A stretch of DNA of 64,000 bases from Escherichia phage slur09: the sequence record NC_028840.1. The stretch is one strand, 5' to 3'. Made by a program: the position numbers and the translations under genes. A model generated the notes under the pieces. The model had not been told where the DNA came from, made no database searches, and saw only the letters and a program-made list of their open reading frames with translations. Each line of letters begins with the position of its first letter. Within the stretch, counting starts at the first letter, position 1. Shown piece by piece: positions 48,462 to 48,980 of this stretch.

Positions 48462-48980
48462 ATGAATGTTGATGAGCTAACACAGCACCTCTTATCTAGA
48501 GGATTTGATACAGATAAATATCATTGCTGGTTAAGTCCGGAAGGATGGCTAACAGTCCCGTTGTATGACTTCTCTGGGATGTTGAGGGGCTATCAGACTT
48601 ACAATCCCTCTGCTCCAAAAGGTCATGGTAAGTGCCCCTTTGAAGCTAAATATTTTACTTATTCTACTACCCAGTGTGTATGGGGACTAGAAACTCTCAA
48701 TGGAGATGAAAAAGTAGTATTGATTGCTGAGTCTGTATTTAAGGCAGTGGCGCTACATAACGCTGGTTATCCAGCCCTGGCAATGTTGGGTTCTTCTCCA
48801 GGAAAAGCGTTATTAAAGCAACTGAAATTACTACCTTTTAAATTGGTAGCTGTTGGGGATAATGACCCTGCAGGTGAAAAATTTGCTAGAAAATTAAACG
48901 GCTTTGTTTCTCCTGTAGATGTGGATGAGATGTCTACCGAAAACTTGAAAAATTTTCTTGCTATGAAGCTAAATTTCTAA
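48462..48980 (+). CDS. Toprim-domain protein (primase-like/OLD-like fold)
   Basis: VVLIAESVFKAVAL and LVAVGDNDPAGEKFARKL motifs (Toprim E and DxD); start at ATG after AGAGGA (ORF track starts at 48411). Confidence 0.5.
   Translation: MNVDELTQHLLSRGFDTDKYHCWLSPEGWLTVPLYDFSGMLRGYQTYNPSAPKGHGKCPFEAKYFTYSTTQCVWGLETLNGDEKVVLIAESVFKAVALHNAGYPALAMLGSSPGKALLKQLKLLPFKLVAVGDNDPAGEKFARKLNGFVSPVDVDEMSTENLKNFLAMKLNF

What the first reader, a model, noticed from the sequence alone, without database searches (positions are those of the whole stretch)
48462..48980. Stand-alone Toprim-domain protein in the tRNA/early region
The conserved Toprim E (IAESV) and DxD (GDNDPAGE) motifs occur without an attached zinc-finger or helicase domain. 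This may be an OLD-like or primase-like accessory nuclease separate from the bona fide primase at 14918..15808.
Basis: partly seen in the sequence, partly recalled or inferred. Interest (0 to 1): 0.35.

Follow-up and report, generated by a model that had tools for sequence, protein, structure and literature searches.

The report
Phage T5-type Rad anti-retron protein
This gene of a T5-like phage encodes a small primase-like (Toprim) protein that is 99% identical to Rad, which a 2023 preprint reports to disarm bacterial retron defences by lowering their non-coding RNA, so the finding is real but already known.

Summary
Window 48462..48980 (+) is a 172-aa ORF with a Toprim Glu (IAESV) and a DxD motif (GDNDPAGE), and no zinc finger or helicase domain. 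The window comes from a Tequintavirus (T5-like phage). The ORF is the homologue of T5.076, annotated 'DNA primase'. It is 188/189 identical to ORF75 of phage SP15. Azam et al. (bioRxiv 10.1101/2023.03.15.532788) named that gene rad (retron anti-defense). They report that Rad neutralises five retrons and lowers msr-msd ncRNA and msDNA in vivo. It loses activity when R13, P33, I88, D135 or E156 are mutated, and all five residues are present here at those positions. The gene lies in the deletable, tRNA-rich 'anti-defence island'.

New here: the predicted fold is the whole DnaG/T7-type RNA-polymerase domain, not an OLD-type nuclease. The family is large and nearly phage-only. Outside T5-like phages it sits repeatedly in tRNA arrays, next to CCA-adding enzyme or RtcB, and is sometimes fused to CCA-adding enzyme. 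Complete primases coexist with it in T5-like and Jersey-like phages.

Novelty: already known. Direct RNA cleavage has not been shown in vitro.

The parts
48462..48980 (+). rad coding sequence (172 aa plus stop). Homologue of T5.076 and of SP15 ORF75.
   Evidence: ORF list and sequence. 188/189 identical to SP15 E0157_075 over the 189-aa frame, and identical over the 172-aa core. T5 annotates the 172-aa form.
48411..48461 (+). In-frame upstream extension, giving 189 aa as annotated in SP15 and some other records. Probably not translated.
   Evidence: ATG 48411 lies in the spacer of the promoter-like site 48403-48431 (read). T5 places promoter P15a directly upstream of the 172-aa start. The preprint's mutant numbering (R13, P33, I88, D135, E156) fits the 172-aa frame.
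48403..48431 (+). Promoter-like TTGCTT, 17 nt, TATAAT. Positional equivalent of T5 early promoter P15a.
   Evidence: Read directly from the sequence and from the position of P15a in NC_005859. The consensus scan did not list it, because the -35 hexamer matches only 3 of 6.
48446..48455 (+). Shine-Dalgarno-like GAAAGAGGAA, 7 nt before ATG 48462.
   Evidence: Sequence.
48462..48701 (+). N-terminal subdomain of the DnaG-type RNA-polymerase domain (residues 1-80). Contains HLxxRG (R13), the GYQxYxP strand, K63-Y64 and WGLE.
   Evidence: AF2 secondary structure. Foldseek alignments span both subdomains. Conservation across 143 family members. The profile aligns to E. coli DnaG residues 94-210.
48711..48977 (+). 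Toprim fold (residues 84-172).
   Evidence: Pfam Toprim_2 at residues 88-149. Foldseek matches to RNase M5 Toprim and to DnaG/T7.
48723..48743 (+). Toprim glutamate motif IAESVFK (E90). K94 stands where DnaG-type primases have the second acid (EGxxD).
   Evidence: E90 is kept in 141/143 members. Position 94 is D in 80 and K in 49. It aligns to EGIFD of the window's own primase and EGYMD of E. coli DnaG.
48855..48878 (+). DxD motif GDNDPAGE (D133, D135).
   Evidence: D133 in 131/143 and D135 in 138/143. D135H weakens Rad.
48912..48929 (+). Third acidic motif PVDVDE (D153, E156). Equivalent of the DPD motif of DnaG.
   Evidence: D153 in 130/143 and E/D156 in 130/143. It aligns to 'GKDPGD' of the T5-type primase. 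E156H weakens Rad.
48958..48986 (+). Promoter-like TTGCTA, 17 nt, TATAAT, spanning the 3' end of rad and its stop codon. Equivalent of T5 P15b and reads into the tRNA genes.
   Evidence: Consensus scan, 10 of 12. T5 annotation of P15b overlaps the 3' end of T5.076.
49002..49090 (+). tRNA-Ser(GCU), 21 nt after the rad stop. The second tRNA of the window, after tRNA-Arg at 45391-45465, and the first of the dense downstream run (context).
   Evidence: ARAGORN.

Best explanation
The ORF is rad (retron anti-defense), an early, dispensable counter-defence gene of T5-like phages. Its product is a 172-aa enzyme made only of the catalytic RNA-polymerase domain of a DnaG/T7-type primase. That domain comprises an N-terminal nucleic-acid/NTP-binding subdomain and a Toprim metal centre. 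It has no zinc-binding domain to read DNA templates and no helicase-binding domain.

Reported by others: Rad neutralises several retrons. It lowers the retron msr-msd non-coding RNA and the msDNA made from it, but not the RT or effector mRNAs. It needs residues of both subdomains.

Inferred: the N-terminal subdomain binds the structured ncRNA, and the Toprim centre (E90, D133, D135, D153, E156, with K94 replacing one metal ligand) cuts it. No msDNA-based sensor is then assembled, and the retron cannot abort the infection.

The gene sits with phage tRNA genes and other anti-retron ORFs in a deletable 'anti-defence island'.
For: Identity:
- 188/189 identical to SP15 ORF75.
- That gene is the one named rad in bioRxiv 10.1101/2023.03.15.532788.
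- All five mutated residues (R13, P33, I88, D135, E156) are present at those positions in the window ORF.
- The Privateer homologue tested in the preprint is BFVD structural hit 3, with 43% identity and TMq 0.82.

Function:
- Rad rescues deletion phages from retrons Ec67, Ec78 and Ec83, and rescues lambda vir from Ec48 and Se72.
- It lowers msDNA and msr/msd RNA. Double mutants are inactive.

Dispensability:
- T5Mos carries the deletion 30661-38625, which covers T5.076 at 37279-37797.
- T5n and SP15m lack the roughly 8-kb island.

Catalytic competence: the Toprim acids and the R13 and K63-Y64 motifs are conserved across 143 family members.

Not the replicative primase: complete primases coexist with it in the window and in a Jersey-like phage.

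Context:
- The neighbouring ORFs 50229..50504 and 49932..50138 are homologues of SP15 ORF71 and ORF72, which are reported as anti-Ec83.
- A tRNA-Tyr gene lies at 50635-50722, and the preprint reports that the T5-family tRNA-Tyr cancels Ec78.
Against: - The functional evidence comes from one preprint. It is in vivo only (plaque assays, gels, qPCR).
- Single point mutants only weaken activity.
- The fold is that of an RNA polymerase domain. No DnaG-type RPD is known to be an RNase (own knowledge), so lowering of ncRNA could be indirect.
- Later retron papers in the library cite the preprint only in passing.
Confidence: 0.78

Rival explanations
1. Rad-family proteins are general phage enzymes for structured small RNAs, acting in tRNA 3'-end maturation, repair or turnover. 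Retron ncRNA would be only one substrate, or a side substrate. The enzyme would act before or together with CCA-adding enzyme or RNA ligase. This partly overlaps the best explanation.
For: True fusions without internal stops:
- CCA-adding enzyme followed by the Rad domain (P0078).
- Rad domain followed by the PolyA_pol head, with the HD/tRNA_NucTran2_2 part in the next gene (P0102, L014).

Gene neighbours:
- CCA enzyme directly upstream in Vibrio phage F94 (annotated). Vibrio phage helene has the same layout, with an upstream ORF that recovers the same CCA-enzyme ORFs in phmmer.
- RtcB directly downstream in Agricanvirus.

Non-redundant environmental loci against 72 control primase loci:
- 13 of 67 hold tRNA genes within the flank, several with the gene embedded in the array (L102, L110, L162), against 0 of 72 (p=4e-5).
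- CCA enzyme in 6 of 67 against 0 of 72 (p=0.011).
- tRNA, CCA enzyme or RtcB in 18 of 67 against 0 of 72 (p=5e-7).

The gene also lies in tRNA arrays in Novosibvirus, and 2 kb from a tRNA array in a jumbo Siatvirus.
Against: - The association could simply reflect co-location of counter-defence genes (tRNAs, RNA repair, Rad) in variable islands.
- About 73% of loci show no such neighbour.
- The control loci come from other, mostly smaller phages.
- Jersey-like phages carry the gene after an SNF2 helicase, and no tRNA was found in the 8.5-kb locus around it.
- T5 deletion mutants lacking rad grow normally without a retron.
- Other fusion partners (Arr-like ART, GNAT, Mom, ParB_N) are not tRNA-specific.
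Confidence: 0.22
2. It is an accessory DNA primase. It would be a minimal catalytic subunit that makes RNA primers on phage DNA, perhaps using a zinc-binding domain supplied in trans by the true primase.
For: - The fold and sequence motifs are those of DnaG/T7 primase catalytic domains, including the KY motif and R13.
- It is annotated 'DNA primase' in T5 and in many other records.
- In Jersey-like phages the gene overlaps the end of a helicase gene.
- A rare fusion to a zinc-finger domain, DUF3268, exists (P0060).
- Iyer et al. 2021 note that jumbo phages have stand-alone DnaG Toprim proteins together with stand-alone primase zinc ribbons.
Against: - It has no zinc-binding or helicase-binding domain.
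- K94 replaces a conserved metal-binding Asp.
- Complete primases coexist with it.
- The gene is dispensable.
- No polymerase gene and only one helicase (UvrD-type) was seen among 139 neighbours at 63 of the 67 loci.
- No DUF3268 homologue was found in the window or in the loci held at that point (L001-L175).
- The observed phenotype is anti-retron.
Confidence: 0.06
3. It is a non-catalytic binder or decoy. Rad would sequester retron ncRNA, or the RT-ncRNA complex, and host RNases would then remove the RNA.
For: - Single active-site substitutions (D135H, E156H) only slightly reduce activity.
- A third of the family has lost the second acidic residue of the EGxxD motif.
Against: - E90, D133, D135 and D153 are conserved in 130-141 of 143 diverse members, which argues for catalysis.
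- Double mutants are inactive.
Confidence: 0.1
4. It is an OLD-like DNA nuclease.
For: It has a Toprim domain with E and DxD motifs.
Against: - No ABC-ATPase domain is present.
- Structural matches are to primase catalytic domains and, partially, to RNase M5. No OLD, Gabija or PARIS structure appears among the 50 listed hits.
- The N-terminal subdomain is specific to DnaG.
Confidence: 0.02

Closest known systems
Rad (retron anti-defense), ORF75 of Escherichia phage SP15, and T5.076 of phage T5
   Same: Essentially the same protein: 188/189 identical to SP15 ORF75, and 94% nucleotide identity to T5. It has the same position directly upstream of tRNA-Ser in the tRNA-rich deletable island, and the same functionally tested residues.
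   Different: Nothing substantive. The annotated length differs (189 against 172 aa) only through the choice of start codon.
RNA-polymerase domain (RPD) of DnaG-type primases: E. coli, M. tuberculosis and S. aureus DnaG, T7 gp4, T4 gp61, Twinkle
   Same: - The two-subdomain fold is the same (Foldseek E 1.6e-6 to 1e-4, TMq 0.5-0.7).
- The family profile matches E. coli DnaG RPD at E=1.6e-6.
- It shares the KY motif, the Toprim Glu, the DxD motif and the third acidic motif.
   Different: - No CHC2 zinc-binding domain and no helicase-interaction domain.
- ESVFK replaces EGxxD.
- Identity is only about 16-24%.
- It is dispensable, and its reported role is RNA-directed counter-defence, not priming.
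RNase M5 (Toprim ribonuclease that matures 5S rRNA)
   Same: It is a stand-alone small Toprim enzyme that acts on a structured RNA. Its Toprim domain superposes at rmsd about 2 A (6z2b, E 1.4e-3, TMq 0.44).
   Different: Only the Toprim half matches. RNase M5 has a C-terminal RNA-binding domain, whereas Rad has the N-terminal DnaG subdomain. There is no sequence-level relationship beyond Toprim.
OLD-family Toprim nucleases (P2 Old, Gabija GajA, PARIS AriB)
   Same: They share the Toprim catalytic module. AriB is a tRNA-cleaving Toprim nuclease (papers listed). They take part in the same arms race, on the host side.
   Different: Those proteins work with or are fused to ABC ATPases and are defence effectors. 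Rad has no ATPase partner, has a DnaG-type N-terminal subdomain, and is a phage counter-defence protein.

Membership tests
Rad (retron anti-defense) family | Close sequence relationship to the characterised SP15 ORF75 / T5 Rad | tested here: met
   188/189 identical. 94.2% nucleotide identity to T5.
Rad (retron anti-defense) family | The residues shown to matter for activity (R13, P33, I88, D135, E156) are present | tested here: met
   All five are present at those positions of the 172-aa ORF. R13 is conserved in 138/143 and D135 in 138/143 family members.
Rad (retron anti-defense) family | Location in the deletable tRNA-rich anti-defence island of T5-like phages | tested here: met
   21 tRNAs lie at 45391-58219, with rad 21 nt upstream of tRNA-Ser. 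The layout is the same in SP15 and T5. Homologues of ORF71 and ORF72 lie downstream.
Rad (retron anti-defense) family | Neutralises retrons and lowers msr-msd ncRNA and msDNA | not testable with these tools
   Reported for the SP15 protein, which is identical over the 172-aa core, in bioRxiv 10.1101/2023.03.15.532788.
DnaG-type (bacterial/T7-like) DNA primase | CHC2-type zinc-binding domain that reads the template | tested here: not met
   No zinc-finger family in Pfam. The protein starts directly with the RPD helix. The window's true primase does have Zn_ribbon_DnaG.
DnaG-type (bacterial/T7-like) DNA primase | RNA-polymerase domain: N-terminal subdomain with a basic KY motif, plus Toprim with Glu, DxD and a third acidic motif | tested here: met
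   Foldseek and profile matches. Conservation.
DnaG-type (bacterial/T7-like) DNA primase | EGxxD motif: a second acidic metal ligand four residues after the Toprim Glu | tested here: not met
   The sequence is ESVFK, with K94. Across the family, 80 of 143 have D and 49 of 143 have K.
DnaG-type (bacterial/T7-like) DNA primase | Helicase-binding C-terminal domain or fused helicase, and a role in replication | tested here: not met
   The protein ends about 15 residues after the Toprim fold. The gene is deletable. It is not next to the replication genes of the window at about 10-18 kb.
DnaG-type (bacterial/T7-like) DNA primase | Template-directed oligoribonucleotide synthesis | not testable with these tools
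   No assay has been reported for any member of phrog_849, as far as the searched literature shows.
OLD-family nuclease | N-terminal ABC-type ATPase domain coupled to the Toprim domain | tested here: not met
   The protein has 172 aa and no ATPase family match. No OLD, GajA or AriB structure is among the listed Foldseek hits.
RNase M5 | N-terminal Toprim domain followed by a C-terminal RNA/ribosome-binding domain | tested here: not met
   Only the Toprim part superposes (95-105 columns, TMq 0.44). In Rad the extra domain is N-terminal and of DnaG type.

The most novel reading that the evidence does not exclude
Rad-type proteins may be a large, phage-specific class of DnaG-derived enzymes that work on structured small RNAs in general. 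Their primary or ancestral job would be tied to tRNA 3'-end maturation or repair. This is suggested by true fusions to CCA-adding enzyme, by adjacency to CCA enzyme and RtcB, and by embedding in tRNA arrays in unrelated phages. Retron ncRNA would then be one target among several. This would be a primase catalytic domain repurposed as an RNA-processing enzyme. The untested EGxxD subfamily, which is the majority, might have a different activity from the ESxxK/EGxxK subfamily that includes the tested T5-type Rad proteins (SP15, T5) and the Privateer-type cluster.
Probability: 0.25. Interest if true: 0.6.

Novelty: already known. Interest (0 to 1): 0.27.

Why it matters
Rad is so far the only reported phage protein that blocks many retron types at once, and retrons are both defence systems and genome-editing tools. 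This scan shows two things. The 'DNA primase' label carried by hundreds of phage records (T5.076, phrog_849) is probably a misannotation of a counter-defence protein. And Rad is built from a complete primase catalytic domain rather than a simple nuclease module. The repeated link to tRNA arrays, CCA-adding enzyme and RtcB supports the idea that phages bundle RNA-centred counter-defences in islands. It also gives concrete substrates to test. For this window the result is ordinary: a known gene in a known phage family.

Tried and rejected
- A single-sequence search of PDB sequences gave only noise, such as xylanases. The family profile was needed.
- The first word-based homologue search found only 6 relatives. 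The exhaustive profile search was needed.
- The diverse 57-sequence alignment A2 was too variable for the search for related loci, so a tighter 8-sequence subfamily alignment A3 was used.
- In the IMG/VR scan, 72 of the 80 loci matched only the Toprim half. They are other primases and were reused as a control, not counted as family members.
- Before finding the preprint I built a 'tRNA repair / 3'-end maturation' hypothesis from context alone. It is kept only as a rival and as the novel case, because experimental data assign an anti-retron role.
- I looked for a zinc-binding partner supplied in trans. Nothing DUF3268-like was found in the window or the loci held at that point (L001-L175). The 61-aa CxxCxGxG ORF downstream gives no significant Pfam match. 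The N-terminal extension of 'full-length' phrog_849 members (P0024) has no cysteines.
- I suspected the multi-domain 'fusions' were gene-calling artefacts from an alternative genetic code. This was rejected, because the three fusion ORFs checked (P0078, P0102, P0066) are open under code 11.
- The text search for 'T5.076' found nothing. One search term was too short.
- The scan of 185,579 genomes found only 2 MAG contigs with the subfamily-specific patterns used, so no cellular context could be exploited.
- Blast clustering and Pfam counts of 139 neighbours gave no dominant partner family. The top counts were 3 each for PolyA_pol, T4 portal and a GNAT family.

Full report
**What is there.** The window is from a T5-like phage (Tequintavirus). 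Bases 47000-51000 are 94-98% identical to the best-matching Escherichia and Salmonella T5-like phages. The flagged ORF runs from ATG 48462 to the stop ending at 48980 on the + strand (172 aa). A Shine-Dalgarno-like GAAAGAGGAA lies 7 nt upstream. Pfam Toprim_2 is matched above its curated cut-off (E=2.2e-5, 25.2 bits against 22.1), and no zinc-finger or helicase family is matched. PHROGs places it in phrog_849 'DNA primase' (E=2.5e-62). The window's real primase at 14918..15808 (-) has Zn_ribbon_DnaG, DNAG_N and Toprim, belongs to a different PHROG (phrog_47), and lies near a DnaB-like helicase, with an HNH endonuclease ORF between the two genes.

**Fold.** An AlphaFold2 model built on seven homologues has mean pLDDT 89. 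Against the PDB, the best matches are catalytic RNA-polymerase domains of DnaG primases (5w33, 3b39, 1dde; E about 2-4e-6, TMq 0.6-0.7). T7 gp4 primase (1nui, TMq 0.68), Twinkle and T4 gp61 follow. RNase M5 matches only through its Toprim half, and no OLD-family structure is listed. A 57-sequence family profile hits E. coli DnaG RPD by sequence (E=1.6e-6). It aligns to the window's own primase at 16% identity. In that alignment KY falls on KY, ESVFK on EGIFD, DND on DND, and PVDVDE on GKDPGD. The protein is thus a complete DnaG-type RPD with no zinc-binding and no helicase-binding domain. It is not an OLD-like nuclease.

**Family.** An exhaustive profile search finds 851 clusters (50% identity) at E<=1e-3, nearly all stand-alone proteins of 165-190 aa. 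Conservation across 143 aligned members:
- E90 is kept in 141.
- D133 is kept in 131 and D135 in 138.
- D153 is kept in 130.
- E/D156 is kept in 130.
- R13 is kept in 138.
- Y64 is invariant, and position 63 is K or R in 142.

This argues for a catalytically active enzyme. Position 94 is the second acid of the primase EGxxD motif. It is D in 80 members and K in 49, including this protein. A scan of 185,579 prokaryotic genomes, using patterns specific to one subfamily, found only two MAG contigs, so the family looks essentially phage-only.

**Identification.** In T5 (NC_005859) the gene is T5.076, annotated 'DNA primase', between promoter P15a and tRNA-Ser. A literature search led to Azam et al., bioRxiv 10.1101/2023.03.15.532788. 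They mapped an anti-retron activity of the T5-like phage SP15 to ORF75 and named it rad (retron anti-defense). They describe it as a small protein (189 aa) with primase/helicase and TOPRIM/RNase domains. SP15 E0157_075 lies directly upstream of tRNA-Ser and is 188/189 identical to the window ORF read from ATG 48411. The 172-aa core is identical. The five residues they mutated (R13E, P33T, I88T, D135H, E156H) are all present at exactly those positions of the 172-aa ORF. The Proteus phage Privateer homologue they tested is the third-best BFVD structural match of my model (43% identity, TMq 0.82). The finding is rad.

**What is reported about Rad.**
- It rescues island-deleted T5 and SP15 from retrons Ec67, Ec78 and Ec83, and lambda vir from Ec48 and Se72.
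- It reduces msDNA on gels.
- It reduces msr and msd RNA by qPCR, but not RT or effector transcripts.
- Single substitutions weaken it and double substitutions abolish it.
- Inserting rad into T7 improves plating on Ec67.

The gene lies in an approximately 8-kb tRNA-rich 'anti-defence island' that is missing from the viable phages T5n and SP15m. Independently, T5Mos carries the deletion 30661-38625, which covers T5.076 (37279-37797), and plates normally without PARIS. The gene is therefore dispensable and not a replication gene. Direct cleavage of RNA by purified Rad is not shown in the preprint, so the chemical step is still an inference.

**Start codon.** ATG 48411, which gives the 189-aa form annotated in SP15, lies inside the 17-nt spacer of a promoter-like TTGCTT/TATAAT at 48403-48431. 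This site corresponds in position to T5 P15a. Together with the mutant numbering, this favours the 172-aa product. A second promoter-like site (48958-48986) spans the 3' end of rad and its stop codon and corresponds to T5 P15b, which reads into the tRNA genes.

**What this scan adds: context outside T5-like phages.** Before the preprint turned up, context analysis had already pointed away from replication.

Jersey-like phages (47-49% identity) carry the gene just after an SNF2-type helicase, but they also encode a separate 766-aa helicase-primase.

Other annotated phages show the following:
- In Vibrio phage F94, an annotated CCA-adding enzyme gene lies directly upstream. Vibrio phage helene has the same layout, and its unannotated upstream ORF recovers the same CCA-enzyme ORFs in phmmer.
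- In Erwinia Agricanvirus, RtcB lies directly downstream.
- In a Proteus Novosibvirus, the gene is inside the tRNA array.
- In the jumbo Klebsiella phage KpLz-2_45, it is 2 kb from six tRNAs.

Three fusion ORFs were translated under the standard code and have no internal stops:
- CCA-adding enzyme followed by Rad (P0078).
- Rad followed by the PolyA_pol head, with the HD/tRNA_NucTran2_2 part in the next gene (P0102, L014).
- GNAT, Rad and an Arr-like ADP-ribosyltransferase in one protein (P0066).

Other multi-domain members pair the Rad domain with an Arr-like ADP-ribosyltransferase (P0023), Mom, a HAD phosphatase, a cytidylyltransferase, a DUF3268 zinc finger or ParB_N.

I compared 67 non-redundant environmental loci of one subfamily with 72 control loci around ordinary Toprim primases:
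- 13 of 67 have tRNA genes in the flank, several with the gene embedded in the array, against 0 of 72 (p=4e-5).
- 6 of 67 have a CCA-adding enzyme within about 3 kb, against 0 of 72 (p=0.011).
- 1 of 67 has RtcB.
- 18 of 67 have any of the three, against 0 of 72 (p=5e-7).

No polymerase gene and only one helicase (UvrD-type) was seen among 139 neighbours at 63 of these loci.

Caveats: the control phages are of a different, mostly smaller kind, and most family loci show no such neighbour. The simplest reading is the island idea of the preprint. Phage tRNAs, RNA-repair enzymes and Rad are all counter-measures against RNA-centred defences, and they travel together. A bolder reading is that Rad enzymes act on tRNA-like RNAs in general. 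That is not excluded, and I give it about 25%.

**Verdict.** The Toprim observation is confirmed. The gene is the already described rad of T5-like phages, so novelty is 'already known' and interest is low to moderate. The 'DNA primase' annotation carried by T5 and many other records is probably wrong in functional terms.

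Noticed in passing
L003 about 4215-4305 (Erwinia phage Deimos-Minion) and L011 about 4250 (Klebsiella phage KpLz-2_45): Rad homologues in jumbo phages need a +1 frame change at the same place, just after the WGLE motif between the two subdomains. 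Both halves keep their catalytic motifs. They are annotated as two 'DNA primase' ORFs or as 'frameshifted'. tblastn shows two pieces in several listed Erwinia phages and in Dickeya JA11 as well. This could be a programmed frameshift or a two-chain enzyme.
   Followed up: partly
window 49932..50138 and 50229..50504 (+): These two small ORFs are homologues of SP15 ORF72 (51/68 identical) and ORF71 (86/91 identical). The preprint reports that a pair of small ORFs from this fragment (F7) neutralises retron Ec83: the text names ORF71 and ORF72, a figure legend ORF72 and ORF73. No Pfam family matches either ORF.
   Followed up: partly
window 50740..51231 and 54257..54730 (+): Two T5orf172/MUG113-domain ORFs (GIY-YIG-like endonuclease family) are inserted between tRNA genes. 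The first lies in a stretch that most of the best-matching T5-like phages do not match: their matches stop at window position about 50728. It is therefore probably a mobile insertion.
   Followed up: partly
window 49393..49578 (+): A 61-aa ORF with two CxxCxGxG motifs (CPECRGIG and CPNCNGTG), resembling the DnaJ-type zinc finger. Relatives annotate it as 'antitermination protein Q-like'. There is no significant Pfam match, and SP15 has a different ORF at this position.
   Followed up: partly
window 15805..16338 (-): An HNH endonuclease ORF (HNH_3, phrog_99) sits between the primase gene and the DnaB-like helicase gene, with overlapping ends. It is probably a homing endonuclease in the replication module.
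   Followed up: no
window 45500..46447 (+): The 'lipoprotein' next to the tRNA region (T5.080 homologue) has an SPFH/Band 7 domain (E=2e-17).
   Followed up: no
window 46772..47188 and 47210..48205 (-): Two divergently oriented ORFs lie just upstream of rad, with no Pfam match. One is very Gln-rich (138 aa). The other has 331 aa, with an acidic, His-rich N-terminus and a Gly-rich hydrophobic stretch. They are homologues of T5.078 and T5.077. The T5Mos deletion ends inside T5.077.
   Followed up: no
L008 11550-11909: ARAGORN calls a tmRNA-like gene (tag ANDNEIVQDFALAA) on a 117-kb viral-like contig that also carries a Rad homologue, a PTH2 peptidyl-tRNA hydrolase and NAD-salvage genes.
   Followed up: no
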